The notes beneath the pieces were generated by a model. It was not told where the DNA came from, did not search any database, and worked only from the letters and a program-made list of their open reading frames with translations. From an uncultured virus (IMG/VR IMGVR_UViG_3300036766_001722) (Duplodnaviria; Heunggongvirae; Uroviricota; Caudoviricetes), in the IMG/VR virus record IMGVR_UViG_3300036766_001722: a stretch of 40,952 bases of DNA. The stretch is one strand, 5' to 3'. Within the stretch, counting starts at the first letter, position 1. Each line of letters opens with the position of its first letter. Both the position numbers and the translations under genes were made by a program. Of this stretch, positions 281 to 12,745 are shown one piece after another.

Positions 281-879
281 AGCCGGAAGATTTGATCCCT
301 GTCGCCACGGCCGTCGGTGCGACGCTAGCCACGCTCGGCGTGCCGCGGCTCATCAAGGCGGTTGGCGAAGCGTGGAAGAAGCGGGCGGAGGCCGGTGCCG
401 ATGTCGTCGTGATCAACGCGACGACGCAGGCCAAGACGCGGGAGGCCGACAGCACCGCGAAGCACAAGCTGGAAGCCGAACGCGCCGCGCTCGACAGCGA
501 GCAAGAGAAGCGTGTGTTCGACCGGCTCATGGCGAAGGTCGAGGAGCACGACAAGACGCGCGAGGATAGGATCATCTACCTCGAACAGCACGTTGCGACG
601 CTGGAACGGGAGCGGGATGCGGCGAGAACTGCTCGCGACGACCTTCAGCGCACGGCGCAAGATCTCGCTGAGCGTGCTTCGATGGTCGCCACTACCCTCG
701 CGAAGACGGAGCGTCGCGTGCTCGAGTTGACCGCGACTTGCACGCGTCTCGAAGAACTGCTGGCGGGAGCGAAGGAGCAGATCGAGCAGCTTCGAGCAGC
801 GCTGCACATCGCGCACCTGGAGAAGGCAGATCTCGAAGCGCAGCTCGAACGAGAGCGCGCCCGCGGCACCGCCGGTTAG
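277..879 (+). CDS. N-terminal membrane anchor plus long coiled coil (possible lysis/envelope protein)
   Basis: Hydrophobic LIPVATAVGATLATLGV segment followed by E/R/L/A heptad-rich sequence. Confidence 0.6.
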   Translation: MKPEDLIPVATAVGATLATLGVPRLIKAVGEAWKKRAEAGADVVVINATTQAKTREADSTAKHKLEAERAALDSEQEKRVFDRLMAKVEEHDKTREDRIIYLEQHVATLERERDAARTARDDLQRTAQDLAERASMVATTLAKTERRVLELTATCTRLEELLAGAKEQIEQLRAALHIAHLEKADLEAQLERERARGTAG

Positions 880-1244
880 GCCGACTTCGCCGCCCAGACG
901 AGGAAGCCGAACGCGCCCACGTAGATCGCCGGAATGATCCACGTCGGCATCGGCGTCATTATGTCGGCGGGCAGAGGCTGCAACTGGACGGTGGGCTGCA
1001 TCGGCACCGTGCTGTTCGTGGTCGTCACGGCCGGGCTCATCGTCTGAACCGCCACGTCCGCCGCTGTCGGCTGCGGCATCGTCAGCACGTCCGTGGGCGG
1101 CTGCGCTTTGAGGTGGTGCTCGCGACACATGGCGTCCGCGTCTCCGCCCGGTGGCATGCCGATGATGGAACCGTCGGCGCAGGTCACAGCGACTGCCTGT
1201 GGCACCTGTCCGAGACTGCGACGCGTAGGCCGGTGATAGCTCAT
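876..1244 (-). CDS. small putative virion membrane protein (MSYH...SLGQ leader, P/T-rich, C-terminal TM)
   Basis: Starts MSYHRPTRRSLGQ and ends in hydrophobic WIIPAIYVGAFGFLVWAA-K. Confidence 0.6.
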   Translation of the reverse strand: MSYHRPTRRSLGQVPQAVAVTCADGSIIGMPPGGDADAMCREHHLKAQPPTDVLTMPQPTAADVAVQTMSPAVTTTNSTVPMQPTVQLQPLPADIMTPMPTWIIPAIYVGAFGFLVWAAKSA

Positions 1245-1288
1245 GCGTGGATGATAGCTGGCTCCGATGATGACGATCAAAATAGTTC

Positions 1289-1317
1289 TTGACGTGAGCT
1301 TGGGCCCCAGTTAGGGT
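1289..1317 (+). promoter_or_regulatory. sigma70-type promoter upstream of structural operon
   Basis: TTGACG-17 nt-TAGGGT. Confidence 0.5.
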
Positions 1318-1367
1318 GCTCTTCGAGACTAAGCCGCTGCGGGTCGAAGTGCCGAACCCTGTGCAAA

Positions 1368-2291
1368 ATGGCTCTGGTCTACACTGCAAGCAGCGAACGA
1401 GAGGCGCGTGAGTACGCGCGGGTTCCTGGGATGGAACCGAACGGTCCCGGCGTCAGTGCGCTGACCGTCGTCAACCCGGGGAAGGCCCCTCGGGGTCGCG
1501 GTTTCAAGTGGGTCTCCAACGGGAGCAAAAAGAAGATGCCCTATACGGTCGCCAGCCTCCGTCGTGCTCGTCGCAATCCCGCGACCGGGCATCGTTCGGT
1601 GTTGGAGGCCGCGCGTGCGATGGACATCGGCAGCACGCCTTCGGGTACGCGCAAGCGCAAGTCGAAGGTGTCGGTCCGCAAGGGCAAGACGCACGCGAAG
1701 GTCCACGCCCACGGCAAGAAGAGCCGCAAGGGCAAGCGCAAGTCGTCGGGCGCGGCCCGCGCGACTCGCAAGAGCAGCAAGAAGAGCCGTCGCAGCGGTG
1801 GCGGTCTCCGCCGCATCTCGCGGCTCTTCAACCGTCCGGTCACGAGCAACCGTCGCAGCAAGCGTCGCAGCAAGCGCAAGTCGATGAAGAAGAACGCGGG
1901 AGTCAACATGTCCAGCCGTCGTAGAGGGCGCCGAGTGCGCCGCAATTCGCGTCGTCGTCGTACCCGTCGCAACCCGGGCGTGCGCTACGTGGTGGCCAAC
2001 CGCTACCGCCGCAAGTCGCCGCGCCGTGGCCACGGCCGCCGCACCCGCCGCAACCCGGGCGTGCGCTATGTGGTCGCCAACCGCGGTCGTCGCCGTTCTC
2101 GCCGCTCGGTGCGCCGCAACGTGATGCAGGCAGCGGCGAACCCGCGCCGCTCGCGCCGCTCGCGTCGCCGTCGCGGCACACGTCGCAATCCGTTCTACGT
2201 GCTGGCGAAGAACCGCGGCACGTCGAAGGGCCGCCGCTCGCTCGCGGCGAAGAAGGGCTGGGCGCGTCGTCGCCGTTCGGTGCGTCGGTGA
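1368..2291 (+). CDS. Arg/Lys-rich protamine-like putative DNA-condensing core protein
   Basis: Very basic, with repeated RRNP-GVRYVVANR units; ends RRRRSVRR; stop overlaps the next GTG. The start could be 1431. Confidence 0.7.
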   Translation: MALVYTASSEREAREYARVPGMEPNGPGVSALTVVNPGKAPRGRGFKWVSNGSKKKMPYTVASLRRARRNPATGHRSVLEAARAMDIGSTPSGTRKRKSKVSVRKGKTHAKVHAHGKKSRKGKRKSSGAARATRKSSKKSRRSGGGLRRISRLFNRPVTSNRRSKRRSKRKSMKKNAGVNMSSRRRGRRVRRNSRRRRTRRNPGVRYVVANRYRRKSPRRGHGRRTRRNPGVRYVVANRGRRRSRRSVRRNVMQAAANPRRSRRSRRRRGTRRNPFYVLAKNRGTSKGRRSLAAKKGWARRRRSVRR

Positions 2292-3688
2292 AGCGCAAGT
2301 ACCGCAAGTCGCGCCGTCACGGGCGCCGGGTGCGCCGCAACGTGACGCAGGCGGCGGCGAACCGCCGTCGTTCGCGTCGCCCGCGCCGCAACGTGATGCA
2401 GGTGATGGCGAACCGCGGTCATCGTCGCTCGCGCCGCCGTCGCAGCACGCGCCGCAACCCGACCTACTTCGCCATGGCGAACCGTGGTCGTCGTCGCTCG
2501 CGCCGCTCGGTGCGTCGCAACCGCTTCACCGGCTCGCGCTTCCGCGGCTTCCGCGTGAACGGCCGCCGCAGAAGCCTGCGTCGTAATCTGCTTGCGACCC
2601 AGGGTGGTCGCACGCTGCAGATCGTGGAACTCGGCCCGCGCTCGGGCCGGATGAAGGGGCACAAGATTCACGTGCCCGGCTTCGACACTGTCGGCTACCG
2701 CCGTGGTTTCACGTTTGGCGGTGCTGCCAAGCGCGCTCACGCCCGCAAGCGCGGGATGTCCAAGAACTCGAGGAGAACGTCCATGCGTCGCAACCCCCGT
2801 TACGTATTCGCCCCCAACCGTCGTCATTCGCGTCGGAGCCGTCACCTCCGCCGCAACCGTCACGGCCGCATGCTCCGCAACGCGGCGGTGGACGTGATGC
2901 AGCAGGTGATCATCCCGGTCGCGGGTGGCACTGCCGGGTTCGTCGGCGCGCGCGTGATCGCCAACGCGATCTCGCAGGTCGGCGCCATCACGAACATCCT
3001 CGACAAGGGACAGCCGCCCGAGATGGCGGACAACACCAAGATCGTCGCGAACCTGCTGACGATCGCCGCGACGTTCGGCGTCGGAGCGAAGGTGGAGATC
3101 GTGCGCAAGAACCAGGGCGCGATCGTCACCGGCATGGGCCTCGCGCTCGTGGACAAGCTGCTCGGCAAGATCGGCGGCACCGCCGGCAACTATCTGAGCG
3201 GCGTCGGCGAGTACTTCGACCAGCCGGTCGCGGGCGTCGGCGAGTACTTCGACCAGCCGGTCGCGGGCGTCGGTGAGTACTTCGACCAGCCGGTCAGTGG
3301 ACTCGGGGCCTACATCTCCGACCCGACGGCGGGTATGGGCGAGTACTTCGACCAGCCGGTCGCAGGCCTCGGCGCGATGTACGCCACGGCGGGCGCGGAT
3401 GGCCTCATGGACATCGCGGAGGCGCAGGCCGGTGTCGGAGCCGTCGAGCAGGCGGCAGCGGGCATGGGCATGATGTACGCCACCGCGGGCTTCGGTGACG
3501 ATGCCGGTCCGCCGGTCGTCGCGCTGACGCAGGTGCCGTTCACCAGCATCCAGACGCCGACGGACGTCGCGTCGCAGATCACGAACACGCAGCCGTACAC
3601 CCAGCAGGTCGAGTCGTCGATGGTTCCGGGCGAGGCCACTGGCTACGCGTCCGGACTCTTCGCCGGCACGATCTTCGAGGGCTGCTGA
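2288..3688 (+). CDS. Arg-rich N-terminus, hydrophobic helices and acidic GxGEYFDQPVA repeats; putative core/internal-membrane protein
   Basis: About 200 aa of RRN/ANR repeats, then hydrophobic segments (VIIPVAGGTAGFVGARVIA; GAIVTGMGLALV) and 11-aa tandem repeats. Confidence 0.7.
   Translation: MKRKYRKSRRHGRRVRRNVTQAAANRRRSRRPRRNVMQVMANRGHRRSRRRRSTRRNPTYFAMANRGRRRSRRSVRRNRFTGSRFRGFRVNGRRRSLRRNLLATQGGRTLQIVELGPRSGRMKGHKIHVPGFDTVGYRRGFTFGGAAKRAHARKRGMSKNSRRTSMRRNPRYVFAPNRRHSRRSRHLRRNRHGRMLRNAAVDVMQQVIIPVAGGTAGFVGARVIANAISQVGAITNILDKGQPPEMADNTKIVANLLTIAATFGVGAKVEIVRKNQGAIVTGMGLALVDKLLGKIGGTAGNYLSGVGEYFDQPVAGVGEYFDQPVAGVGEYFDQPVSGLGAYISDPTAGMGEYFDQPVAGLGAMYATAGADGLMDIAEAQAGVGAVEQAAAGMGMMYATAGFGDDAGPPVVALTQVPFTSIQTPTDVASQITNTQPYTQQVESSMVPGEATGYASGLFAGTIFEGC
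3200..3364 (+). repeat. five tandem 33-bp coding repeats (GVGEYFDQPVA; fourth unit diverged)
   Basis: GGCGTCGGCGAGTACTTCGACCAGCCGGTCGCG units start at 3200, 3233, 3266, (3299) and 3332. Confidence 0.9.
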
Positions 3689-3690
3689 AC

Positions 3691-4473
3691 ATGGGCCGCC
3701 GTCACTCGCGTCGCCGGCACAGCCTGCGAAAGAACCGCGGTCACCGCCGCGTGCGCCGGAACCCCGACTGGATGCGTGAGGTCGTGGTGCCGGTAGCCGG
3801 TGGAGCCGCGGGCTTCATCGCGGCGCGCGTCGGCGGCCACCTCCTCGCCAACCAGAGCCTGCCGGTCGTCGCCGGCAACCCGAACGCTGCCAAGCTCGTC
3901 GCGGCTGCGGTCGGAATCCCGCTCGCAGCGTGGGGCGCGTCGAAGGTGGACGTGCTGCGCGAGAACCTCGGCGCGGTCGTCCTCGGCATGGGCATGGCGC
4001 CGGTGGAGGGCTACCTCCGCGGCGTGCCGTTCATGGGCGGCTCGCCCATGATCGCCATGCCCGTCTCGACGCCGATGACGACGCCGGCTCCGGTGGTCGA
4101 CACGGCGCAGTCGCCGAATGCGGCGACGGGTCCGACGGCCGGTCTCTCCGACTACTACACGTCGGGGATGCTCGGGCTCGGCACCGGCATGGACGTGAGC
4201 CACTTCGGTGCGCCCTACCAGGGCATGCTGGGGATCGGCGACGCCGATGCCGTGATCACCAGGGCGGAGCACGCCGACGCGAGCGCGACGCGTGGCGGTC
4301 GGTGGGGCTCGGTCCCCGCGGTCTCCATCGTCACACCGACGGACGCGATCGCTCGCGCACACGAGGAGCCGTTCGCGGCTCCGATGACGGAGACCTTCGC
4401 TTCGCCGGGAGGTCGCGGGTACGCGGGCGGCATCTTCGCTCGCCAGCTCTTCAGCCAGGGGATGGACGTCTAG
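3691..4473 (+). CDS. paralog of 2288..3688 with a short Arg-rich N-terminus; putative virion membrane protein
   Basis: Shared blocks: VVVPVAGGAAGFIAARV, vRxNxGAxVxGMG, SIxTPTD and GYAxGxFA. Confidence 0.7.
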   Translation: MGRRHSRRRHSLRKNRGHRRVRRNPDWMREVVVPVAGGAAGFIAARVGGHLLANQSLPVVAGNPNAAKLVAAAVGIPLAAWGASKVDVLRENLGAVVLGMGMAPVEGYLRGVPFMGGSPMIAMPVSTPMTTPAPVVDTAQSPNAATGPTAGLSDYYTSGMLGLGTGMDVSHFGAPYQGMLGIGDADAVITRAEHADASATRGGRWGSVPAVSIVTPTDAIARAHEEPFAAPMTETFASPGGRGYAGGIFARQLFSQGMDV

Positions 4474-4642
4474 GTCCACATGATCGTCAGCGGCTCGGTC
4501 ACCGCAAGGTGAGAGCTGTCCGACTGCCGGGCAGCAAGCGAGTCGCAAAGAGGGCCGTCGCGATAGACGGATCCACGGCAGGAACAGAAACCCAACATGG
4601 TGTTGGGTGGACTCTCAGAGACAGAAGCACGAAGGACAACAC

Positions 4643-5494
4643 ATGCCCAAGATCGTAGGAACGCGCGAGCGCGTTCACCAGCCGTTCTATGACTCCCTCA
4701 TCCGCGTCGACGGGTCCGCTGACCTGCGCTCGGGGAACCAGGGCGTCTTCCAGGCCCTCAACGGCCGCACGCAGCTCTTCACGCGCCAGGGTTCGGACAT
4801 CGCCGTCTGCAACCTGACGACCGGCTCGACGTTCCCGTCGGACCAGACGTTCATCACGCTCGCGATCCGCGTGTGGACGTACTTCCGCTTCAACACGGAG
4901 TCGACGCGCACCGTCGCGCCGGGCGCGACCTACATGGGTCAGCTCCCCGGCAACGTGGCGCCCGTGGGTGCCATGGGCGGCGTGACGGTGGACCGCGTGC
5001 AGCGCGTCCACAAGCTGTACTACCAGGCCGAGAACCAGCTCTTCTGGCAGTTCTTCGCCGGTGACAAGCCGCAGATCACCACCTTCACGGCGTACACGCC
5101 GTTCGCGGGCGGCATCGACGGCTACTTCTCGGACTCGCGCCTGTACGTGGCGAACAACGGCGAGCCGACCTCGAGCGCGCTCATGCGCCTCGCTCGTCCG
5201 ATCCTCATCCCGCCGCGCCAGGGTTTCCAGGTCGTGTGCCAGGAGTCCTCGATCGGCCAGGCAGTCGGCGCGAACTTCGTGGACCAGGCGAACGGCCTCG
5301 TCCCGAACAACGACGGCTGGGGCCCGATCACGGGCGGCACGACTGGCACGGTCACGGCCGGCTTCGTGAACCAGACGACGAACCTCGGCCTCCTCGCGAA
5401 CAGCGGCGCCGGCCTCTCGGTGGCAGGCGCGGACGACATCGAGAAGGACTGCAAGTATCTCCTCGATGGGCTTCACAGCCGGGACGTTCTGTAA
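4643..5494 (+). CDS. putative major capsid protein (single jelly-roll-like)
   Basis: 283 aa and beta-rich. The pattern QPFYDS...LF...NLTTGSTFPSDQTFITLAIRV...LARPILIPPRQGFQV...LDG resembles capsid proteins of tailless prokaryotic viruses. Strong C/G-ending codon bias, GAAGGA RBS. The fold is inferred. Confidence 0.55.
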   Translation: MPKIVGTRERVHQPFYDSLIRVDGSADLRSGNQGVFQALNGRTQLFTRQGSDIAVCNLTTGSTFPSDQTFITLAIRVWTYFRFNTESTRTVAPGATYMGQLPGNVAPVGAMGGVTVDRVQRVHKLYYQAENQLFWQFFAGDKPQITTFTAYTPFAGGIDGYFSDSRLYVANNGEPTSSALMRLARPILIPPRQGFQVVCQESSIGQAVGANFVDQANGLVPNNDGWGPITGGTTGTVTAGFVNQTTNLGLLANSGAGLSVAGADDIEKDCKYLLDGLHSRDVL

Positions 5495-5610
5495 TCTGAA
5501 TGGTTCCGCCTAGTTACGGCGGAAACATCAGACACAGCACGAACTGATCGGGCAGCTCCGGCCCTACAAGCGGAGTGACACAGACGCGGCGGCGAGCTTC
5601 GGCTCGCCCC

Positions 5611-5652
5611 GCGACTCCTGAGCAGGAGCGAGAGTTCCTGCGCAGGAGTCGC
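5611..5652 (+). other. long intergenic hairpin downstream of putative MCP gene
   Basis: GCGACTCCTG-A-GCAGGA...TCCTGC-G-CAGGAGTCGC inverted repeat. Confidence 0.6.
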
Positions 5653-5715
5653 GGCAACGCGAAAACCGCCGTAGGCCCGACGAGGAGTCGGGTGATGGGC
5701 AAGGTAACTAGACAC

Positions 5716-6684
5716 ATGGCCGATCCGAATCTCCCGCAGCTCCCCACGAATCTTCACCCGCAGCTCGCTTCTCACCTCGCTGCCCTCGGCGACAAGAACG
5801 AGCGGCAGGAGATGCAGCTCAGAGCCCTCTACAAGAGGGTCATGCAGCTCGCGCAGCAGCACGCTGACGATCAAGTCGCGATCCGCGAGCTGCGCGCCGC
5901 CTACAAGAAGGCGGCCGACCGCATCCGCTACATCGAGGACATCCCCGGCAAGCGCGTGCCGTACTTCCTCGGGTTCAACATCGAGATCCCAGGCCCCGAC
6001 AGCCCGACCGAGACCCTGCGCGGCGCCCGTCTGCCCGACGTGAAGCAGGTCTCGATGGACGGCCCGTTCGTGTGCACGTCCTACATGACGGCCTTCCTGA
6101 TGAAGACGTTCTCGATCGGTCCCTATACGATCGACAACGATCCGAACACGGGCCGTCCGAACGATCCCCAGGCCGGTATCGAGGTGATCACGCCGCTCTC
6201 GGGCCGCTTCCGCCCGTGTGCGAGCACCGCCGATCCGTTCTCGGGCGCTTACATCGGCGCGCAGGTCGGTCCGTTCAACGAGGCCGGAGCGTCGCTCGTC
6301 AACACGTTCCGCCCGGGCGAGATCGACTTCCTCTTCGAGGTCCAGGACAGCGGCGTCGATCGTCTCCGCCAGAACCAGGTCCCGATTCCGTCGCGCTACC
6401 TCGTCACGGAGTTCGACCGCCCGCTCTACCTGCCGGTGTCGGACTTCTTCGAGCGTGGCACGACGATCACGTTCACCGCCACCCTCACGCGTGACCTCGG
6501 GTTCGCCGAGGTCAACTACGCACAGCTCCCGAATGGCTTCGCCGAGGGCAATCAGAATCCGCCCCCGAATCCTCCGCTCACTGGCGCAGTCACGTCCTCC
6601 CGTGCAGTGGTGTCCATCGGCGGCACGCTCTACTTCACGATGGTCGGCTACAAGATCCTTCAGGCGCAGAGCCCCGGGGTCTGA
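5716..6684 (+). CDS. putative second/minor capsid protein (N-terminal coiled coil plus jelly-roll-like domain)
   Basis: DGPFVC...FEVQDSGVDR..QN..IP...PLYLP...FERGTTITFT...LYFTMVGYK beta-strand pattern. Confidence 0.5.
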   Translation: MADPNLPQLPTNLHPQLASHLAALGDKNERQEMQLRALYKRVMQLAQQHADDQVAIRELRAAYKKAADRIRYIEDIPGKRVPYFLGFNIEIPGPDSPTETLRGARLPDVKQVSMDGPFVCTSYMTAFLMKTFSIGPYTIDNDPNTGRPNDPQAGIEVITPLSGRFRPCASTADPFSGAYIGAQVGPFNEAGASLVNTFRPGEIDFLFEVQDSGVDRLRQNQVPIPSRYLVTEFDRPLYLPVSDFFERGTTITFTATLTRDLGFAEVNYAQLPNGFAEGNQNPPPNPPLTGAVTSSRAVVSIGGTLYFTMVGYKILQAQSPGV

Positions 6685-7373
6685 TGTCGCCTCGCTCTCA
6701 CCAGGTACGTCTCGCAGGGACTCACGCACAAGCGCCGAGCCCCCTGCCGCAGTCGTACCCGGCCGTCGGACCAGTCGTTTCGACGCAGGTCGTCAACGGG
6801 TTCTCGTCGTGGCTGCCTGGGCGCACGCGGGTCTTCTATCAGCGGAACCTGTTCCTGGCGTACCCGCGGCCGATTCAGATGGCGCCCGGAGCCCCGTATC
6901 CGACCGACCGTACGATCTTCAAGCTGCGGGCGCCTCAGGAGCAGGTGATCGTAGTTCGGCAGATCGCGTTCCGGGTGTTCATCCACTCTGGCATCGGCAA
7001 CGACGACCTCGTGGAGCTGCAGCGGTCGCGCTCGACGACGTTCCTCGGGTTCAGTTTCGCGAGCGGCAACCGCGGGATCACCGACTACGTCACGAACGTC
7101 TCCTCCATCAAGGGCGCGGTCCAGCAGGGACCTAACGGCGCGACCGTTGCGCCGCAGTCGGGCAGCGGCACCATCTGGCCGTTCACCGGCAGCATCGTGC
7201 CGGGGGGAGACCAGAACTGGGCCGGCTACATCATGCCGAACCAGGAGTACGACGCGAAGGTGGTGATCCTTCGCGAGCCCAACTTTGATGTTCGGGTCAT
7301 CTCGTGCGAGGTCAGCGGCTGGGTCCTCGGCGAGACGCAGTTCAACTACATGATCGACAAACTCACGGGGTAA
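6684..7373 (+). CDS. putative minor capsid/penton-like protein
   Basis: Translationally coupled; beta-rich (IFKLRAPQEQVIVVRQIAF ... CEVSGWV). Confidence 0.45.
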   Translation: MSPRSHQVRLAGTHAQAPSPLPQSYPAVGPVVSTQVVNGFSSWLPGRTRVFYQRNLFLAYPRPIQMAPGAPYPTDRTIFKLRAPQEQVIVVRQIAFRVFIHSGIGNDDLVELQRSRSTTFLGFSFASGNRGITDYVTNVSSIKGAVQQGPNGATVAPQSGSGTIWPFTGSIVPGGDQNWAGYIMPNQEYDAKVVILREPNFDVRVISCEVSGWVLGETQFNYMIDKLTG

Positions 7374-7387
7374 CCACGCACTCTCTC

Positions 7388-7517
7388 GCTCGACCATCAG
7401 AACCGGGGCCTGCATTCCTTGAAGGAAGAACCTCAACCAATGGGTCATTCTCCTCCAGGCGCCCCACCTAGCCGCCTCGCAGCGGAAGGGATCGGGCCTC
7501 GGTTCGGATGGTCGAGC
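7388..7517 (+). ncRNA. candidate structured intergenic RNA closed by a 23-bp terminal stem
   Basis: 7388-7410 pairs with 7495-7517 (one mismatch, one G-U). Confidence 0.4.
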
Positions 7518-7552
7518 CTCTCACCAACCGGCAAGTCGAAAGGGACTCTCAC

Positions 7553-7891
7553 ATGAAGAAGAAGCGTCGTCGTCACACCAAGGCTCGCTACGCACTGAAG
7601 ATCGCCGGCAAGCGCCACAACTTCCGCCTCAAGCGCGCAGCGCGTAAGGCAGCAGTGGCCGCTCGTCGCAGCGGTCGCTCCGTGGTGGCGGTGCCGGGTC
7701 ATCCGACGGGCCTCGCGGCGCGTCGCTCGAAGAAGCGCCGCAGCAGCAGCAAGAAGCGCCACTCGGTTCGCAAGAACCGTCGTCGCTCGCGCCGCGTGCG
7801 CCGCAACGTGAGCTACGCGACGGCGAATCGTCGTCGTTCGCGCCGCCACTCGGTGCGCCGCAACCGCCGTCACCGTCGCTCGCGCCGCTAA
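7553..7891 (+). CDS. small Arg-rich protein, RRSRR-tail array member 1
   Basis: GAAAGGGA RBS; RRN/ANR repeats; ends HRRSRR. Confidence 0.75.
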   Translation: MKKKRRRHTKARYALKIAGKRHNFRLKRAARKAAVAARRSGRSVVAVPGHPTGLAARRSKKRRSSSKKRHSVRKNRRRSRRVRRNVSYATANRRRSRRHSVRRNRRHRRSRR

Positions 7892-7897
7892 GGTCAG

Positions 7898-7917
7898 GCC
7901 CTCCTGAGAAGGAGGGC
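7898..7917 (+). terminator. GNRA-capped hairpin (possible terminator or processing site)
   Basis: GCCCTCCT-GAGA-AGGAGGGC, with no clear U-tract. Confidence 0.4.
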
Positions 7918-7965
7918 ATGATCGTCTTCAGGGTAGCCACCGCTGATCGTCAAGGAGAAGACCGC

Positions 7966-8259
7966 ATGAGACGCCGCATGAGGAGACCCGTCACTCGCAG
8001 CCGCAAGCCGCGGGCGAGCGCGTCGAAGTACGTCGTGTTCACCGCGAAGCCGCGCCGCAAGCGTCCGACCGAGCGGTACTTTCGGCTGAGGAGCGCGGCA
8101 CAGAAGGCCGTGCGTCGCGCGAAGGCGCATGGATTCCAGTCGCACATGGAGTCGATCACCGGCTCGTGGGGTGGCGGGTACCGCGCACCGCGCAAGCGTC
8201 GTAGCGTGAGCGCGAATCGCGCGCGTCGTCGCTCGGTACGCCGTCGCAGCCGCCGCTGA
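7966..8259 (+). CDS. small basic protein, RRSRR-tail array member 2
   Basis: AAGGAG RBS; ends RRRSVRRRSRR. Confidence 0.75.
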   Translation: MRRRMRRPVTRSRKPRASASKYVVFTAKPRRKRPTERYFRLRSAAQKAVRRAKAHGFQSHMESITGSWGGGYRAPRKRRSVSANRARRRSVRRRSRR

Positions 8260-8280
8260 TCGTCAAGGAGGAAGACGCGC

Positions 8281-8481
8281 ATGGCCAAGAAGAAGAAAGA
8301 GGACGTGGCGGCCGAGATCACTCTGGCGATCTGGGGAGCGATGTTTTACGGACTCACCAGGAAAGAGATCAACCACGCCATCCGTGAGGGCTTTTCGCCA
8401 CAGGCCGTGCGCTACTACCGCCACGGTCCTCCGAAGCGCAATCCTCGCCGTCGCTCGGTACGCCGTCGCTCTCGCCGCTAG
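8281..8481 (+). CDS. small protein, RRSRR-tail array member 3
   Basis: AGGAGG RBS; helical head followed by KRNPRRRSVRRRSRR. Confidence 0.75.
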   Translation: MAKKKKEDVAAEITLAIWGAMFYGLTRKEINHAIREGFSPQAVRYYRHGPPKRNPRRRSVRRRSRR

Positions 8482-8492
8482 GAGAGAACACC

Positions 8493-8714
8493 GTGAACAC
8501 GAAGAAGGACTACGAGCGCGCAGCGATGATCGTCCGTGGATACCCGCCGACGGGCGTCAGCGACGTGGTCTGCGACGCGTTCGTGATGTTCTTCCGGGGT
8601 GACAACCCGCGCTTCGACGGTGACCGCTTCCGCGCGGCGTGCAAGGGCGGCGCAGTGCGTCGGAACCGTCGCTCGCCGCGTCGCCGTTCGGTCCGTCGTC
8701 GGAGCCGTCGATGA
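8493..8714 (+). CDS. small protein with DNPRFD..RF..AC head, RRSRR-tail array member 4
   Basis: AGGAG RBS; the head resembles a small phage protein family (TxKDY...DNPRFDxxRFxxAC); tail RRRSVRRRSRR. Confidence 0.75.
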   Translation: MNTKKDYERAAMIVRGYPPTGVSDVVCDAFVMFFRGDNPRFDGDRFRAACKGGAVRRNRRSPRRRSVRRRSRR

Positions 8715-8959
8715 AGAAGATCTTCCAGACGGAGCTGGACAAGGTCGAGGCCGCCGCCGCACAGGCGTGGCAGTACGGCGCGACGCCGAGCGAGGTGGCC
8801 ACCGCTGCCAAGAAGGGCGTGAGGCATGCGATGGGCGGTGGCCTTTTCCGTTCGGCGCGCAAGTTGCGTCGCCATTCGACGGTCCGCGCCAACGGCTGGC
8901 GTCGTCGCCAGGCGGCGCAGACGCGTCGCCGCTCGCGTCGTCGTCGGAGCCGTCGATGA
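8711..8959 (+). CDS. small protein, RRSRR-tail array member 5
   Basis: ATGA overlap; the GGAG RBS lies inside the preceding tail codons; ends RRRSRRRRSRR. Confidence 0.75.
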   Translation: MKKIFQTELDKVEAAAAQAWQYGATPSEVATAAKKGVRHAMGGGLFRSARKLRRHSTVRANGWRRRQAAQTRRRSRRRRSRR

Positions 8960-9174
8960 TGAAGAAGAACTTCAGAGCCATCGCCGAGCACGCGAAGCGC
9001 CAAGAAGACCTCTACTACGACATCGTGAACGCGCTGAACCAGGCGTGGTTCTACGAGATGAAGCCAGGGCTCGTGTTCAAGGCCATCAGGGAAGGCACGA
9101 CCGGGCCCTTGGCGAGCGGCTACCGCGGGCTCAAGAAGCCGAAGCGTCGCAGCAAGAGAAGGAGCCGTCGGTAG
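8956..9174 (+). CDS. small protein, RRSRR-tail array member 6
   Basis: ATGA overlap; ends KRRSKRRSRR. Confidence 0.75.
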   Translation: MMKKNFRAIAEHAKRQEDLYYDIVNALNQAWFYEMKPGLVFKAIREGTTGPLASGYRGLKKPKRRSKRRSRR

Positions 9175-9226
9175 CAGCGCCCGACGTGCTAGAACGCCAC
9201 GACACGGTCTACTGAGGAGTCTCTCG

Positions 9227-9646
9227 ATGTCCTACCACCGCCACCACCAGTCCCTGCCGCCCGAGTACTTCGGTCACACCGTCACGCCGGTAGACGGGCT
9301 CGGCCTCACGTTTGCCGAGGCCGACGGGATCGCCGAGAGAGCCGGTCGTCGTCTCGGCGCGTGGCCGTACCGCGCGCGGGTGATTCCGGGGCGTGCAGGT
9401 TTCGGTCAGGCACCCTACTACCCGGTGGTCCAGCCGGCTCTTCGTGGGCTCGGCGGCAGCGGTCTCTTCCGCGCCGACATCTTCGGCAAGCAGACCGGCG
9501 CGCTCGGTGACGGGCTCTTTCGTGCGGACATTTTCGGTCGTCGCAATGACGGTCTCGGCAACTGGATCGCGCGCCTCTTCGGACGTGGCCGTCGTGGGCT
9601 CGGTGGTTCTGGTGACGGTCTCGGCAGCGTGCTCGCTGTCCTCTGA
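9227..9646 (+). CDS. Gly-rich protein with repeated GLG and GLFRADIFG motifs; putative virion protein
   Basis: GAGGAG RBS; MSYH start; multiple GLG motifs. Confidence 0.7.
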   Translation: MSYHRHHQSLPPEYFGHTVTPVDGLGLTFAEADGIAERAGRRLGAWPYRARVIPGRAGFGQAPYYPVVQPALRGLGGSGLFRADIFGKQTGALGDGLFRADIFGRRNDGLGNWIARLFGRGRRGLGGSGDGLGSVLAVL

Positions 9647-9660
9647 GGGAGCCCGAATAG

Positions 9661-10221
9661 ATGCCGCCGCGTCGCCGTCTTGATGGCCTCGACATCCTCG
9701 ACGACGTCGTCGACAACGCCATCGGTTCGCTCTTCGATAGAGGCGCGGAGTTCGTTCAGCGTGTCCGAGATCAACAGCCTCGCCCGCTTCCGGGCGTGCT
9801 CTACGTCTGTATCCTCTGCAAACAGCAGAAGCCGTGCGAGATGGCGAAGGCCAATGCGAAGCCGGGGGACGAGGGCTACGGTTTCGGGTACTGCAAGGAG
9901 TGCCTCGACTTCTCGTGGCAGGCGGCTCAGGAGAAGATGGCGTACCTCGCGAGGCAGCAGGCGCGCGCCCGAGCAGGGGGAGGTGTTCCTCCGGGTCCTA
10001 CGCCGCCTCCGCGTCGTCCACCGTGGGACGTCCTGGAGATCTCAGCGGACGCATCCGAAGAAGAGATCAAGAAGGCCTACCGCCGCGTCGCTGCACTCTG
10101 GCATCCGGACCGAGTTCCGGCCGGGTCTCCGGACGGCGAGAAGGAACGCTATCGGGCGAAGTTCGAAGAGGCAACGAGCGCTCGCGATGCGATGCTCGCG
10201 GTGAGACAGGTGCGCACGTGA
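9661..10221 (+). CDS. J-domain (DnaJ-like) protein with N-terminal CxxC/CxxC zinc motif
   Basis: PWDVLEISADASEEEIKKAYRRVAALWHPDR with the HPD motif; CILC and CKEC. Confidence 0.85.
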   Translation: MPPRRRLDGLDILDDVVDNAIGSLFDRGAEFVQRVRDQQPRPLPGVLYVCILCKQQKPCEMAKANAKPGDEGYGFGYCKECLDFSWQAAQEKMAYLARQQARARAGGGVPPGPTPPPRRPPWDVLEISADASEEEIKKAYRRVAALWHPDRVPAGSPDGEKERYRAKFEEATSARDAMLAVRQVRT

Positions 10222-10391
10222 ACGAGATGATCGTCACGCGTCGCTGTCCGCGCTGCCTGCTCCCGGTGTGGGTCGGGCTGCACGAGTGCGGTGAGCCGCT
10301 CGAGGCGGAACTGATGGACGAGGTGCCGATTCGGCGGCGGAGTGAGAAGCTGCGACCGGAGTCGCAACCGGTCGCCGAGGCGGCGCCGTGA
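10218..10391 (+). CDS. small zinc-ribbon-like hypothetical protein
   Basis: Coupled on both sides; CPRC...HEC. Confidence 0.5.
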   Translation: MNEMIVTRRCPRCLLPVWVGLHECGEPLEAELMDEVPIRRRSEKLRPESQPVAEAAP

Positions 10392-10807
10392 CCGCGGGAG
10401 CCGACTTCGTTCACGACGTTGCGCTGGCGATGCAGCATCGCGTTGCCGTGCCGCGGGGGATGGTGCCGGACTTCGCGAGCTTCAAGCGGCGCGTGTGGGG
10501 CTACGAAGACGAGCAGGGGTTCTCGCCGATCGGCGCGCCGCCGAAAATGTTCGCGGCATTCGTGGTGAGCGAGGACACGCTGCTTCGGGAGCATGCGCTG
10601 TCGCTGCGTCGGCTCGACCCTGAGAAGATCGACGTCATCGATCACGGCGCCGAGTACGAGGTCGCGTTCCACGATCTCGACGCGCTCCATCGCATCCTCT
10701 TGTCGCTCGCAGAGCAAGGCCGAAACGATCGCGACGAGGACACCCGCGCGTACGCCCGCGCCACCGCTGAGAGGTTTCTGTGGCTACTCGGCTACCGCTG
10801 GGCGTGA
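10388..10807 (+). CDS. hypothetical protein
   Basis: Coupled ORF with typical codon usage. Confidence 0.6.
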   Translation: MTAGADFVHDVALAMQHRVAVPRGMVPDFASFKRRVWGYEDEQGFSPIGAPPKMFAAFVVSEDTLLREHALSLRRLDPEKIDVIDHGAEYEVAFHDLDALHRILLSLAEQGRNDRDEDTRAYARATAERFLWLLGYRWA

Positions 10808-10853
10808 CCGCGGTAGGTAGGGGGCCAGACTGACCCCCCTGCGGTCGTTCCGC

Positions 10854-11627
10854 TTGCAGTGCAGTGCATGCGGCGCTCGAGACGTCGATTCAGCAGACGG
10901 AGACTGGTGGACAGTGGATACGCGTGATCGTCAACGGCGTTCGCTGGCAGGCGGGGACTCGGCACCGGCGTTGAGTTGGTTCCCCGTGCTCGCACCGCCC
11001 GGATGGAGGGCGACGGAGCGCGCCGTGAAGTCCGACGGAACACGTTGTCTGAACGACGCTGGCAACACGTACCAGCAGGCTGGCGCGTCGTACCCGGCAG
11101 AACGTCCGATCCTCTACGACTCCTTCAACGACACGCGTCACGGCGTGCCGCATCAGGCGATGGACATCATGGCCGCGCGAGGCGCGCCGGTCGTCGCTCC
11201 GCTCGACGGCGTAGTGCCAGTCACCGTGACGTACAAGGGAGCGACCTATCCTGGCCAGGGTCAGTCGGCGAAGGGCGGCAACTACGTCTACATCGACGGC
11301 GCTGACGGCTGGCAGCACTACTTCGCGCACATGCGCAACGTGCGCGTGAAGCCTGGCCAGAAGGTCGTCGCCGGGCAGCAGCTTGGCGAGGTCTCCGACA
11401 CGGGCGACGCCATGGGCGGGTGCACGCATCTGCACTACGCCACCGAGCTGCCCGACGGGACGAAGTTCAATCAGTATCAGCTCCTCAAGCAGCTCTACGA
11501 CGCCGGTCTCTGGCAGGGGAGCCCTGTGGCGACGCTCCCGTCGTGGGTCTGGCCGACGGTGGCAACCGTGACAGTGGGTGGTGTCGCGATCGCTGGGATG
11601 TGGTGGTGGCGGCGGCGGAAGCGGTAG
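10854..11627 (+). CDS. M23-family peptidoglycan endopeptidase with C-terminal TM anchor (start uncertain)
   Basis: HQAMD, GGNYV, YFAHM and HLHY motifs; C-terminal TM followed by RRRKR. Confidence 0.9.
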   Translation: MQCSACGARDVDSADGDWWTVDTRDRQRRSLAGGDSAPALSWFPVLAPPGWRATERAVKSDGTRCLNDAGNTYQQAGASYPAERPILYDSFNDTRHGVPHQAMDIMAARGAPVVAPLDGVVPVTVTYKGATYPGQGQSAKGGNYVYIDGADGWQHYFAHMRNVRVKPGQKVVAGQQLGEVSDTGDAMGGCTHLHYATELPDGTKFNQYQLLKQLYDAGLWQGSPVATLPSWVWPTVATVTVGGVAIAGMWWWRRRKR

Positions 11628-11695
11628 CGGTAAAAGGACGATAAACGCGTGGGCGACGGTTGACGTCCTCTTGTTGCGGTGATAGACGTTGCCCG

Positions 11696-12745
11696 ATGGC
11701 TGACGATCAGGGCTACGGAAGCATTCATCCGCTGGCCGACTACGCGGAGCTTCTCGGGGCGGTGTTCGGCGACGGATACATCAAGCGCCGCGCGACACGC
11801 AGGCATGACTCATGGATCGTGTCGGTCTGCGTGAGCGTCCAGTATCCGGTGTGGGCTGCCCGAGTGCCGGAGCTGTTCGAGATCGTCTTCGGCCGGGTGT
11901 CGTCCACTCCAAGGAAGGGCCGCAAGACGCCGACCAAGGACTGCTACGTCACGACCTCGGACCTCTACGGGCTCCTTCGCGTGCGCGGCAAGTACGACGA
12001 GAAGGGACGCATGGCCCCGCCGTCATGGATTACGAGCGACGCGGAGTACACGCGTCGGTTCATGCTGGGTCTCGTGGAGACGGATGGCATGTTCAAAGCG
12101 ACATCGGACAAGAGGTACTCTGGTAACGAGTGGGCTCGTTTCGCTTTCACTCAGAAAAACGAATACCTGGTGAACTGGTTCGCTGATCGTCTTCGTGAAC
12201 ACGGATTCGAGCCAGCACTCTCCTATGGGGAACAGGCGGGTGTATGGAGTGTCCGCGTCAATCGTCAGGTAGACGTCCAGCGGCTTGGCGAATGGCTAGG
12301 CTCCTGTAAGTGGAAGGCGCTCCTCGAGTCGGGGTACGAACCGCACGCTGGGCGTCGCGCGGCCGGGGTGAGCGAAGCGAAGATCTTGAAAACCGTTCCC
12401 ATGGCAGACCAAGAGCGGTGGCGTGCTCTTCGTCAGGCTGGGGCGTCGGTGGTTGCGATCGCGCGTGACACGGGTCGGGCGAACAATGTCGTTCACGACG
12501 TGATTCGGGACATCGTTCCGACGAAGAATGCTAGCGCTCAGGAGCTTGGGCTTACGGTGCGACCGCGGTTCCCGATGGAAAGGCGCGTGCCTCGCGCTGA
12601 GGTGGAGCAGTGGCGCAAGGAGGTGGAGGCTGGCGAGTCCGCGCGGCAGGTGGCGATCAAGTACGGACGTCCCTGGTGGACGGTCACCGAGGCCACGTGC
12701 GACTTGAAGCGTCCGCGCAACATGGGGCCGCCTCGTGGTGACTGA
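11696..12745 (+). CDS. free-standing double-motif LAGLIDADG homing endonuclease-like protein with C-terminal HTH-like repeats
   Basis: YAELLGAVFGDG and FMLGLVETDG motifs; C-terminal GASVVAIARDTG and GESARQVAIKYG. Confidence 0.8.
   Translation: MADDQGYGSIHPLADYAELLGAVFGDGYIKRRATRRHDSWIVSVCVSVQYPVWAARVPELFEIVFGRVSSTPRKGRKTPTKDCYVTTSDLYGLLRVRGKYDEKGRMAPPSWITSDAEYTRRFMLGLVETDGMFKATSDKRYSGNEWARFAFTQKNEYLVNWFADRLREHGFEPALSYGEQAGVWSVRVNRQVDVQRLGEWLGSCKWKALLESGYEPHAGRRAAGVSEAKILKTVPMADQERWRALRQAGASVVAIARDTGRANNVVHDVIRDIVPTKNASAQELGLTVRPRFPMERRVPRAEVEQWRKEVEAGESARQVAIKYGRPWWTVTEATCDLKRPRNMGPPRGD

What the first reader, a model, noticed from the sequence alone, without database searches (positions are those of the whole stretch)
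7553..9174. Array of six small genes with different heads fused to one C-terminal RRSRR tag: candidate virion cargo-tagging system
Seen: six consecutive genes directly after the capsid-like genes all end in RRSRR, three of them in the identical RRRSVRRRSRR. The upstream core-like protein (1368-2291) ends RRRRSVRR. The N-terminal parts are unrelated or highly diverged. One head (TxKDY...DNPRFDxxRFxxAC) resembles a small phage protein that I recall occurring without such a tail. Inference: the Arg tail is a portable DNA-binding/encapsidation tag that loads diverse effectors into the virion core so they enter the cell with the genome. This would be analogous to T4 internal proteins (IPI-III), but with a C-terminal polybasic tag instead of an N-terminal capsid-targeting sequence.
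Basis: partly seen in the sequence, partly recalled or inferred. Interest (0 to 1): 0.88.

Follow-up and report, generated by a model that had tools for sequence, protein, structure and literature searches.

The report
Arginine-tail gene array, uncultured virus
Six small neighbouring genes of an uncultured large bacterial virus all end in the same arginine-rich tail, which this virus group attaches to many unrelated proteins, probably to stick them to the viral DNA.

Summary
Six translationally coupled + strand genes (7553-9174) each end in RRSRR-stop. These are the only six RRSRR-stop sites in all six frames of the window (dinucleotide shuffles: mean 0.16).

The tail is a lineage-wide module: an Asn-led Arg/Ser peptide ending in -(S/T)RR. 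It sits on 76 of 1,295 non-redundant proteins called in relatives. These proteins are 55-818 aa long, mostly of no known family, and 28 have a membrane helix just before the tail.

The tail is one unit of the Arg/Ser repeat that fills the neighbouring giant basic protein (1368-3688).

- **Portability is supported.** The head of gene 4 belongs to a widespread ~65-aa family, and 0 of its 150 best homologs carry such a tail. Several heads occur with and without the tail among relatives.
- **The array is hypervariable.** It holds 6 genes plus a relic here, 1 in the closest locus fetched, and 4 in another slot elsewhere. The tail-stop-start junction is repeated in its DNA.
- **Function is inferred.** DNA binding, packaging into particles and any effector role remain untested.

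The virus (relatives 160-298 kb) shows no recognisable terminase or HK97 capsid gene. The upstream "capsid-like" genes are only weakly jelly-roll-like.

The parts
7553..7891 (+). Gene 1, 112 aa. It is basic throughout (37 Arg, 13 Lys, no Asp/Glu). It consists of about 2.5 units of the lineage's Asn-bracketed Arg/Ser repeat and ends RRHRRSRR.
7892..7965 (+). Spacer between genes 1 and 2. It holds a perfect 8-bp hairpin (7898-7917) that covers the AGGAGG before the ATG at 7918. It also holds a relic of a tail end plus junction (AGC CAC CGC TGA at 7935-7946, then TCGTCAAGGAG). This relic is 96% identical over 23 nt to the gene 2/gene 3 junction.
   Evidence: repeat family D8
7966..8259 (+). Gene 2, 97 aa, ends RRRSVRRRSRR. 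It is the only array member with a homolog in related loci (L001 6964-7434, same slot). That homolog's tail differs and carries the SLAAKKGWARRRRS stretch that here ends gene 1368-2291.
8281..8481 (+). Gene 3, 66 aa. It has a short helical-looking head that is a paralog of the gene 6 head. The tail is KRNPRRRSVRRRSRR.
8493..8714 (+). Gene 4, 73 aa. Its head (residues 1-52) is a member of a widespread small-protein family (TKKDY...DNPRFDxxRFxxAC). Here the head is fused to VRRNRRSPRRRSVRRRSRR.
8711..8959 (+). Gene 5, 82 aa. Its start overlaps the gene 4 stop (ATGA). The tail runs from ANGW to RRRRSRR.
8956..9174 (+). Gene 6, 72 aa. Its start overlaps the gene 5 stop (ATGA). The tail is KKPKRRSKRRSRR. 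It is the only one of the six without an Asn before the Arg run.
1368..3688 (+). Two genes (1368-2291, 307 aa, 26% Arg, ends RRRRSVRR; 2288-3688, 466 aa). Together they correspond to one 632-973 aa protein in relatives. They hold 13 RRN sites of the repeat RRN(P/V)-6 or 7 residues-N-(Arg/Ser run), followed by a hydrophobic stretch and a conserved C-terminus. This repeat is the likely source of the tail module.
3691..4473 (+). Paralog of 2288-3688. It has an Arg-rich N-terminus (ending RRNP), then a hydrophobic stretch, and the same conserved C-terminal motif (GYAGGIFARxLF).
4643..7373 (+). Three strongly conserved beta-rich genes (4643-5494, 5695-6684, 6684-7373) that define the block. Fold matches to jelly-roll capsid proteins are weak.
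9227..10221 (+). Conserved downstream flank of the variable slot: gene 9227-9646 (C-terminus GDGLGSVLAVL) and a DnaJ-domain gene 9661-10221. Both are found in most relatives.

Best explanation
The six genes are real small genes. They sit in a hypervariable slot of the conserved, probably virion-forming gene block of an uncultured large bacterial virus. The window's contig is about 165 kb, and complete relatives are about 160 kb with direct terminal repeats.

Each gene is a short head joined to the lineage's shared C-terminal module. The module is an Arg/Ser(Thr) run, usually led by an Asn, almost free of Lys and acidic residues, and ending in -(S/T)RR at the very C-terminus. It is one terminal unit of the repeat that fills the neighbouring giant basic protein.

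Shown:
- The module is portable. It is attached to many unrelated proteins and is gained and lost on the same head.
- The array turns over by duplication and loss at a repeated tail-stop-ribosome-site-start junction.

Inferred:
- The tail is a polycation that binds the viral DNA.
- Tail-bearing proteins therefore coat and condense the genome, and sit on it when the particle forms.
- The wholly basic members (gene 1, the giant protein) do the bulk of charge neutralisation.
- The headed members (genes 3-6) ride along as variable accessory core proteins, and could enter the next cell with the DNA.
For: **Tail motif and enrichment**
- 56 of 889 closed called genes in the window plus 79 loci have >=5 Arg in the last 10 residues. 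The figures are 3 of 873 for random internal 10-mers and 20 of 889 for N-termini.
- Adding two full genomes, 76 of 1,295 non-redundant proteins carry the tail.
- Of those 76, 55 have Asn-(x)-basic-basic in the last 22 residues, against 20 of 1,219 untailed proteins.
- 32 of the 76 end in [ST]RR, against 1 of 1,219 untailed.
- Arg outnumbers Lys 6.07 to 0.43 in the last 10 residues.
- A strong Arg-over-Lys bias is the reported mark of nucleic-acid-binding arms of capsid proteins (PMC7096446, abstract).

**Selection on the peptide**
- The identical tails of genes 2 and 4 differ at 7 synonymous sites.

**Portability**
- 0 of the 150 best homologs of the gene 4 head have the tail.
- L067_18186, L040_2767, L016_3187 and the PcfJ-like protein carry the tail, while their homologs in other relatives do not.

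**Diverse carriers**
- Carriers are 55-818 aa long.
- 8 of 52 scanned carriers have any Pfam hit: weak PcfJ-like in 3, plus PG_binding, M23, hexapeptide, and weak TPR and YhaL.

**Location**
- In the window, all 7 tail-bearing genes of 65 called lie in 1368-9174, inside the conserved block.

**Source repeat**
- There are 13 RRN sites in 1368-3688, and gene 1 is built of the same units.

**Turnover**
- A 44-nt junction is repeated 4 times at spacings of 222, 233 and 245 nt, and a relic junction lies at 7935-7957.
- The window has 6 genes, L001 has 1, and L028 has 4 in another slot.

**Precedents for DNA condensation by Arg/Ser-rich virion proteins**
- Ascovirus P64 (PMC6163548, abstract).
- Baculovirus P6.9 (PMC12159748, abstract start in the listing).
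Against: - No binding, virion or expression data exist. No RNA run was available.
- The virion role of the gene block is itself inferred. The two structure models are of low confidence (pLDDT 65 and 51). Their best matches (Z 6.0 and 6.3) lie below the level the tool calls meaningful.
- 28 of 76 tail carriers have a membrane helix directly before the tail. There the tail could simply be an exaggerated positive-inside anchor. If the particle had a PRD1-type internal vesicle, cytoplasmic tails would face the shell and not the DNA (my inference from textbook topology).
- High G+C favours Arg codons, which may inflate the Arg-over-Lys bias.
- In the complete relative G004, tail genes also lie far from the block and on the other strand (7 of 20).
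- Large motor-packaging phages are reported not to use Arg arms (PMC7096446, Discussion passage). The idea therefore needs this virus to be unusual.
Confidence: 0.45

Rival explanations
1. Pure genome condensers. All six are protamine-like charge neutralisers. The heads are only small oligomerisation or bridging pieces, and nothing is delivered as an effector.
For: - Genes 1 and 2 are 33% and 30% Arg, with net charges +50 and +34.
- Relatives carry a single wholly basic 117-130 aa protein in the neighbouring slot (L014, L016, L021, L023, L024).
- Heads 3 and 6 are paralogs.
- Small protamine-like proteins are the norm in large eukaryotic DNA viruses (PMC6163548 abstract).
Against: - The gene 4 head comes from an independent family that exists widely without any tail.
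- Carriers include 400-818 aa proteins and enzyme-like domains.
- The content of the slot turns over quickly, which is unexpected for a bulk structural role.
Confidence: 0.2
2. Intracellular address, not virion cargo. The Arg/Ser tail takes proteins to nucleic acid inside the infected cell (host nucleoid, RNA, ribosomes or a viral replication condensate). It acts there without being packaged.
For: - Arg/Ser-rich peptides bind any polyanion.
- Tail genes in G004 are spread over two distant regions and both strands.
- The heads have no structural-protein signature.
Against: - In the window and in most loci the tail genes lie within the conserved block and on its strand.
- The giant repeat protein of that block is built of the same units.
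Confidence: 0.15
3. Membrane-side signal. The tail is an extreme positive-inside / anionic-lipid-binding anchor of membrane-associated assembly proteins. The small soluble members are peripheral membrane proteins.
For: - 28 of 76 carriers have a hydrophobic helix directly before the tail.
- In G003 most carriers read helix-KxxPV(S/T)xN-RRRRRR.
Against: - 48 of 76 carriers have no such helix, including all six genes here.
- Lys is almost excluded, whereas membrane anchors use both Lys and Arg (my knowledge).
- The same unit is repeated 13 times in a soluble-looking basic region.
Confidence: 0.12
4. Not genes. The ORFs are by-products of a G+C-rich, CGN-rich stretch, or of genes on the opposite strand.
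For: An antisense ORF at 7950-8345 also has high GC3 (0.80). Arg-rich open frames are common in all frames of this window.
Against: - Six exact RRSRR-stop ends against 0.16 expected.
- Ribosome sites and coupled starts.
- Synonymous-only differences between identical tails.
- 261 homologs of the gene 4 head.
- A syntenic homolog of gene 2.
Confidence: 0.02

Closest known systems
Internal proteins of T-even phages with their capsid targeting sequence (CTS)
   Same: A diverse, fast-changing set of small proteins shares only a short targeting peptide and is packed with the DNA. [quoted passage not shown] A variable array with one shared terminal peptide is what is seen here.
   Different: - The CTS is N-terminal, binds the scaffolding core and is cut off by the prohead protease (my knowledge).
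- Here the shared peptide is C-terminal and polybasic, with no shared N-terminal leader.
- No protease or scaffold gene was recognised.
- There is no sequence relation.
Protamine-like core proteins of large eukaryotic DNA viruses (baculovirus P6.9, adenovirus pVII/mu)
   Same: These are small Arg/Ser-rich proteins that condense the genome in the particle. I saw only the abstract starts in the listing (PMC12159748, PMC5899202, PMC10548178). Gene 1 (33% Arg, no acidic residue) looks like this class.
   Different: - Those are eukaryotic viruses.
- They are dedicated condensers, not a tag on many unrelated heads.
- No homology was found.
- Phosphorylation control is documented there and is only a guess here.
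Ascovirus P64 family
   Same: A large virion protein whose basic C-terminal domain condenses the viral DNA (PMC6163548, abstract). It resembles the 1368-3688 protein with its 13 Arg/Ser repeat units.
   Different: No sequence relation was tested or found. It is an insect virus, and no family of tail-tagged accessory proteins is described there.
Arginine-rich arms of icosahedral capsid proteins (R-arms; also the hepatitis B core C-terminal domain)
   Same: Terminal, disordered, Arg-biased segments whose total charge scales with genome charge (PMC7096446, abstract and passages).
   Different: - R-arms belong to the capsid protein itself. Here the three conserved beta-rich proteins lack them, and the tails sit on other proteins.
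- That paper states that complex motor-packaging phages lack typical R-arms.
Gly-Gly-joined Arg/Lys tails on unrelated proteins of giant viruses
   Same: A terminal polybasic peptide on roughly 1 protein in 8-14, read as a DNA or virion address label.
   Different: - Those tails are joined through Gly-Gly and are suspected to be clipped by a viral protease.
- Here GG at the head-tail joint is not enriched: 2 of 76 against 11% of control windows.
- The joint is instead marked by Asn, Lys is nearly absent, and the host is bacterial.
The stand-alone TKKDY...DNPRFD...RF..AC small-protein family (partly covered by phrog_2922 / phrog_19432, function unknown)
   Same: The gene 4 head aligns over its whole length at 41-60% identity, with all family-invariant residues present.
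   Different: - Family members are about 65 aa (median) and end soon after the RF..AC motif.
- 0 of the 150 best have the Arg tail.
- One (P0266) has a long mixed Arg/Lys/Thr tail.

Membership tests
T4-type internal proteins (CTS-targeted) | Shared N-terminal capsid targeting sequence | tested here: not met
   The N-termini share only Met-Lys-Lys-like starts. The shared peptide is C-terminal.
T4-type internal proteins (CTS-targeted) | Prohead protease and scaffolding core that receive and process the proteins | tested here: inconclusive
   No protease or scaffold family was found by Pfam or PHROGs in the block. None was found among 136 proteins of the complete relative G003. Divergent ones could be missed.
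T4-type internal proteins (CTS-targeted) | Presence inside the capsid and ejection with the DNA | not testable with these tools
   The virus is uncultured and no proteome is available.
Protamine-like viral DNA condensers (a functional class, not a homologous family) | Very high Arg content with Ser/Thr, and almost no acidic residues | tested here: met
   Gene 1 has 37 Arg, 13 Lys and 0 Asp/Glu in 112 aa. Gene 2 has 29 Arg in 97 aa. The 76 tails together hold 3 acidic residues in their last 15 positions.
Protamine-like viral DNA condensers (a functional class, not a homologous family) | Binds and condenses the viral DNA in the particle | not testable with these tools
Capsid-protein R-arms | The Arg-rich segment is a terminus of the capsid protein itself | tested here: not met
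   The three conserved beta-rich proteins (4643-7373) have no Arg-rich terminus. The tails are on other proteins.
TKKDY/DNPRFD small-protein family (gene 4 head) | Full-length alignment with the family's invariant residues | tested here: met
   261 proteins match at E<=1e-3, the best at 2.4e-10. The invariant columns A10, F34, N38, F41 and F46 are present. The window protein itself scores no PHROG at E<=0.01. Nine and 8 of 30 aligned members hit phrog_2922 and phrog_19432.
Gly-Gly-joined cleavable basic tags (giant-virus notes of this scan) | Gly-Gly or Ala-Gly at the head-tail joint | tested here: not met
   GG lies within -12..+6 of the joint in 2 of 76 carriers, against 11% of control windows.
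Jelly-roll capsid proteins (for the upstream 'capsid-like' genes) | Confident jelly-roll fold matching a known capsid protein | tested here: inconclusive
   For 5695-6684 the model has pLDDT 65. Its best match is Z 6.0 to the Sulfolobus polyhedral virus 1 capsid chain 6oj0_T (129 residues aligned, rmsd 3.8), and Foldseek gave E>=0.02. For 4643-5494 the model has pLDDT 51. Its best match is Z 6.3 to birnavirus VP2 (112 aligned, rmsd 3.8), mixed with non-viral beta-sandwiches.
Tailed phages (Caudoviricetes), for the virus as a whole | Terminase large subunit and HK97-fold capsid protein | tested here: inconclusive
   Terminase_6N, TerL_ATPase and Phage_capsid matched 0 of 4 (near-)complete relatives in six-frame searches. 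None appeared among 136 G003 proteins. Only a few Pfam models were tried, portal families were not searched, and divergent genes could be missed.

The most novel reading that the evidence does not exclude
A widespread lineage of 160-300 kb bacterial viruses has no recognisable terminase or HK97 capsid gene. It builds an adenovirus- or ascovirus-like nucleoprotein core. It uses a portable Asn-led Arg/Ser C-terminal peptide (-SRR end) as a general loading tag that takes 8-20 unrelated proteins per genome, soluble and membrane-bound, onto the DNA and into the particle.

The six-gene array would then be a recombination-driven cassette store of co-delivered early-acting (for example anti-defence) proteins. 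That would be convergent with the CTS-tagged internal-protein loci of T-even phages and with the Gly-Gly tags noted in giant viruses.
Probability: 0.2. Interest if true: 0.9.

Novelty: new variant of a known kind. Interest (0 to 1): 0.7.

Why it matters
Polybasic nucleic-acid-binding termini and peptide-targeted virion cargo are both known. A single C-terminal Arg/Ser tag shared by dozens of unrelated proteins of a bacterial virus has not turned up in my literature searches (full text of open papers and bioRxiv only). Large phages are reported to lack Arg arms (PMC7096446).

If the tail loads proteins onto the genome, three things follow:
- It would show that some bacterial viruses organise their DNA with protein cores, as large eukaryotic viruses do.
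- It would give a simple rule for listing the particle's internal proteins from sequence alone.
- It would point to a hypervariable locus where co-delivered counter-defence proteins could be sought.

The short tail would also be a candidate tool for targeting reporters to DNA or into such particles. The lineage is abundant in sediment, soil and freshwater metagenomes, and its virion genes are unrecognised. It deserves attention on that ground alone.

Tried and rejected
- **Family scans.** Pfam, PHROGs and NCBIfam on the six genes and the whole 220-9646 block found nothing.
- **Phage collection.** tblastn of the gene 4 head, of a family member (P0125) and of the 369-aa form of the 5575-6684 protein found no match.
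- **Word-indexed protein search** with the gene 4 head found only itself. The exhaustive HMMER search then found 261 hits, so the first blank was a sensitivity limit.
- **ESM Atlas** on the gene 6 head gave no usable hit.
- **PDB sequence search** with the gene 4 family profile and with gene 2 gave no match at E<=1.
- **phmmer of the six heads, and a profile of the gene 4 family, against all ORFs of 84 related loci** returned only the gene 2 homolog in L001.
- **Large proteins with a gene 4-like domain.** P0123 gave only fragmentary repeat-like Pfam hits and P0189 gave none. The phrog_2922 matches fall at positions 686-737 of a 1,237-position profile. This is uninformative on function.
- **Gly-Gly joint hypothesis** was rejected.
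- **HerA/FtsK-type packaging ATPase.** A DUF87 hit appeared in one protein of the Planctomycetota-MAG contig (E 2.2e-7), but in 0 of 4 complete relatives.
- **Promoter and terminator scan** of 7300-9700 showed nothing above shuffles.
- **Expression.** No RNA holder was listed.
- **Contigs of a second sediment run (X2)** were laid on 4600-11700. Identical pieces cover 7119-7647, and a diverged piece covers 8996-9486. There was no usable cover of 7918-8628, so strain-level turnover of the array could not be judged.
- **Whole genome of the window.** It is not held. Metagenome records behind L010 and others are not searchable.
- **Not spent.** Complex prediction and the last word-indexed search were not used, because no protein-protein claim is made.
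Full report
**Observation**

The region 7553-9174 holds six consecutive + strand ORFs of 112, 97, 66, 73, 82 and 72 aa, and every one ends in RRSRR-stop.
- Genes 2-4 end in the identical RRRSVRRRSRR.
- The upstream basic protein (1368-2291) ends RRRRSVRR.
- RRSRR-stop occurs six times in all six frames of the 40,952-base window, and all six are these genes. One hundred dinucleotide-preserving shuffles gave a mean of 0.16 and a maximum of 2.

The ORFs behave as genes:
- GC3 is 0.74-0.81.
- AGGAG-like sites precede genes 2-4, and genes 5 and 6 start in ATGA overlaps with the preceding stop.
- The identical tails of genes 2 and 4 differ at seven synonymous positions and at no amino acid.
- Gene 4 and gene 2 have homologs elsewhere.

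An antisense ORF with high GC3 exists, but nothing else supports it.

**Where the window comes from**

No whole genome is held for the window. The conserved 329-aa protein encoded at 5695-6684 lies on a 164,952-base contig. It has at least 217 relatives (E<=0.001; the listed best 120 share 60-90% identity with it) in metagenomes, on contigs up to 298 kb.

Thirteen loci lie in IMG/VR records:
- Two are complete genomes with direct terminal repeats, of 159,872 and 161,502 bases.
- Two are linear records of 171,466 and 297,749 bases.

Five loci lie in bacterial MAGs, among them Planctomycetota and Lentisphaeraceae. Binning alone does not prove a host.

The gene content is phage-like:
- Bacterial ribosome sites; TnpB and IS1595 genes.
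- In G003, an integrase, primase, helicases, endonuclease VII and thymidylate synthase.

Yet six-frame searches for Terminase_6N, TerL_ATPase, Phage_capsid and DUF87 matched 0 of 4 (near-)complete relatives. No virion hallmark appeared among 136 G003 proteins or among 90 proteins of a 106-kb MAG contig.

**The block around the array**

Relatives share this order:
1. A 632-973 aa protein with a huge Arg-rich region. It is split in the window into 1368-2291 and 2288-3688, and is also split in L011.
2. A 209-271 aa paralog.
3. A ~260-290 aa protein (4643-5494).
4. The ~310 aa protein (5695-6684).
5. A variable slot.
6. A ~200-230 aa protein (6684-7373).
7. Further genes.
8. A DnaJ-domain protein.

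None has a Pfam, PHROGs or NCBIfam family.

AlphaFold models built on 37- and 40-row alignments are of modest to low confidence:
- **5695-6684:** pLDDT 65. It shows a long N-terminal helix plus a beta domain. The best match is the Sulfolobus polyhedral virus 1 capsid chain (Z 6.0, 129 residues aligned, rmsd 3.8). Foldseek gave only weak circovirus, poxvirus D13 and chlorovirus capsid rows.
- **4643-5494:** pLDDT 51. It is a beta sandwich whose best match is birnavirus VP2 (Z 6.3, 112 aligned, rmsd 3.8), among many non-viral sandwiches.

These values lie under the level the tool itself calls meaningful. 'Capsid-like' therefore stays a reasonable guess and not a result.

**The tail is a lineage-wide module**

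With a codon-usage gene caller of my own, the counts are:
- 56 of 889 closed genes in the window plus 79 metagenome loci have at least 5 Arg in the last 10 residues.
- The figure is 3 of 873 for random internal 10-mers and 20 of 889 for N-termini.
- I added the full genomes G003 (8 of 240 genes) and G004 (20 of 263), removed duplicates and dropped L016, which is part of G004. That leaves 76 of 1,295 proteins carrying the tail.

Properties of the carriers:
- They are 55-818 aa long.
- 57 of 76 end in RR.
- 32 of 76 end in [ST]RR, against 1 of 1,219 untailed proteins.
- 55 of 76 have Asn-(x)-basic-basic in the last 22 residues, against 20 of 1,219 untailed.
- The last 10 residues hold on average 6.07 Arg and 0.43 Lys.
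- Only 3 acidic residues occur in all the last-15 stretches together.
- 28 of 76 have a membrane-like helix directly before the tail.
- Of 52 carriers scanned, 8 have any Pfam hit: weak PcfJ-like in 3, then PG_binding_1, Peptidase_M23, hexapeptide repeats, and weak TPR and YhaL hits.

In the window, the 7 tail genes of 65 called all lie between 1368 and 9174.

A Gly-Gly joint, as noted by this scan for giant viruses, is not present: 2 of 76 joints hold GG, against 11% of control windows.

**Origin of the tail**

The proteins 1368-2291 and 2288-3688 contain 13 RRN sites. These belong to a repeat of the form RRN(P/V), six or seven mostly hydrophobic residues, N, and then an Arg/Ser run.
- Gene 1 is made of about 2.5 such units.
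- The tails of genes 2-5 are the last Asn-led Arg/Ser run of such a unit.
- The tail of the gene 2 homolog in L001 carries the SLAAKKGWARRRRS stretch that in the window ends 1368-2291. Tails are therefore exchanged between genes.

The leading Asn may cap a helix formed by the Arg run. That is my inference.

**Portability and turnover**

*The gene 4 head.* Residues 1-51 were searched by exhaustive HMMER against 1.84 billion representatives.
- It has 261 matches at E<=1e-3.
- The best 150 have a median length of 65 aa, and 0 of 150 have 5 or more Arg in the last 12 residues.
- One (P0266) has a long mixed basic tail.
- Alignment shows the family ends shortly after RFxxAC.
- Nine and 8 of 30 aligned members hit phrog_2922 and phrog_19432, both of unknown function.

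*Heads with and without the tail among relatives.*
- L067_18186 has the tail; its homologs in L059, L066 and L040 end ...QKTGA or ...DKVGAL.
- L040_2767 has the tail; its homologs in L062 and L063 do not.
- L016_3187 has the tail; its homologs in L003 and L004 do not.
- The tailed PcfJ-like ~500-aa proteins have an untailed counterpart in L032.

*The six heads of the window.* Only gene 2 has a homolog in 84 related loci: L001, the closest locus fetched (75% identity in the marker protein), in the same slot. L001 has one tail gene where the window has six.

*Other relatives.*
- L028 has four small tail genes in the slot before the 6684-7373 homolog.
- L014, L016, L021, L023 and L024 have one wholly basic 117-130 aa protein there.
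- Several relatives have none there.

*DNA repeats in the array.*
- A 44-nt piece is repeated four times at spacings of 222, 233 and 245 nt. It covers the tail end and stop and the bases that follow, which in two copies hold the next start.
- The gene 4/5 and 5/6 junctions are 89% identical.
- The sequence before gene 2 holds a relic of a tail end with stop and ribosome site. It is 96% identical over 23 nt to the gene 2/3 junction.

Genes 3 and 6 are paralogs (E 4e-5).

The array thus grows, shrinks and swaps heads through recombination at the conserved junction.

**Most likely mechanism**

- **Shown:** a conserved, selected, portable C-terminal Arg/Ser peptide on many unrelated proteins, concentrated in the conserved block.
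- **Inferred:** the peptide binds the viral DNA, so carriers coat and condense the genome and are enclosed with it.
- **Basis for the inference:** the extreme Arg-over-Lys bias is the reported hallmark of nucleic-acid-binding arms (PMC7096446, abstract). The giant repeat protein resembles the DNA-condensing basic domain of ascovirus P64 (PMC6163548, abstract). Gene 1 resembles protamine-like core proteins (abstract starts seen).
- **Speculative:** the headed members act after entry, as T4 internal proteins do (PMC3012670, passages).

**Points against the mechanism**
- There are no binding, particle or expression data.
- A third of the carriers are membrane proteins, for which the tail could be a topological anchor.
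- In G004, 7 of 20 tail genes lie far from the block on the other strand.
- High G+C favours Arg codons.
- Motor-packaging phages are reported to lack Arg arms.

**Comparison and novelty**

The finding works like CTS-tagged internal proteins, but it fails their defining features. It has a C-terminal rather than an N-terminal peptide, and no protease was found.

It belongs to the functional class of polybasic nucleic-acid-binding termini. It differs from capsid R-arms because the tails are not on the shell proteins. It differs from the giant-virus tags because the joint is Asn rather than Gly-Gly.

I found no description of such a tag in bacterial viruses in four full-text searches. These cover open-access papers and bioRxiv only.

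I rate it a new variant of a known kind. The surrounding virus lineage, whose virion genes are unrecognised, is an additional and possibly larger point of interest.

Noticed in passing
window 4643-7373; relatives G003-G006 (L094, L099, L100, L102): The whole lineage (genomes 160-298 kb, two with direct terminal repeats) shows no Pfam-detectable terminase, HK97 capsid or HerA-type ATPase in 4 of 4 (near-)complete records. Its conserved block has only weakly jelly-roll-like proteins. This may be an undescribed virion type for a large bacterial virus.
   Followed up: partly
window 1368-3688: Genes 1368-2291 and 2288-3688 overlap by 4 bases. Together they match one 632-973 aa protein in relatives (L001 902-3301 is 799 aa). 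L011 is split at a similar place (404 + 599 aa), and its first half ends in the tail. This looks like a natural split inside the Arg-rich repeat region.
   Followed up: partly
window 2288-3688, 3691-4473; L003 3046-7675: Two to four paralogs per genome share a conserved C-terminal motif (GYAGG[IL]FARxLFxG) after unrelated middles. In this window both begin with an Arg-rich N-terminus followed by a hydrophobic stretch.
   Followed up: no
window 7898-7917: A perfect 8-bp hairpin (GCCCTCCT GAGA AGGAGGGC) lies right after the stop of gene 1 and sequesters a strong ribosome-binding site. It could be an attenuator or an RNA-stability element.
   Followed up: no
window 29773-38870: An RNA-repair-like set. 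Two tRNA-Leu genes (CAG, GAG) lie directly before an RtcB ligase gene that is interrupted by a LAGLIDADG intein-like insert (29994-32174). A SLOG/DprA-like gene (32452-32940) and a Ro60-like gene (37227-38870) follow. No Y-RNA family was found by Rfam.
   Followed up: no
window 23361-24623 and 40123-40920 (-): A TnpB (OrfB_IS605 / Cas12f-like) gene and an IS1595-family transposase gene sit inside the viral genome.
   Followed up: no
window 11660-12745; L067 8927-9889; L013 7064-9210: An HTH-containing gene of the window has a 37%-identical copy inserted between the two most conserved block genes in L067. L013 carries a LAGLIDADG gene plus a PAPS-reductase/DUF3440 gene at the same place. Mobile insertions seem to target the conserved block.
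   Followed up: no
window 16750-21720: Three consecutive 446-488 aa genes are followed by a sialate-O-acetylesterase-like gene; the last two begin alike and one has a pectate-lyase-like beta-helix. They are likely fibres or spikes with glycan-degrading activity.
   Followed up: no
window 9661-10221 and most relatives: A DnaJ-domain protein is conserved just downstream of the block in nearly all relatives with enough flank.
   Followed up: no
G003 (L113 16257-16694): A dual-specificity protein-phosphatase-like gene (Pfam DSPc, E 2.4e-7, below the curated cut-off) occurs in a complete relative. It is of possible interest if the Ser/Thr residues in the tails are phosphorylated.
   Followed up: no
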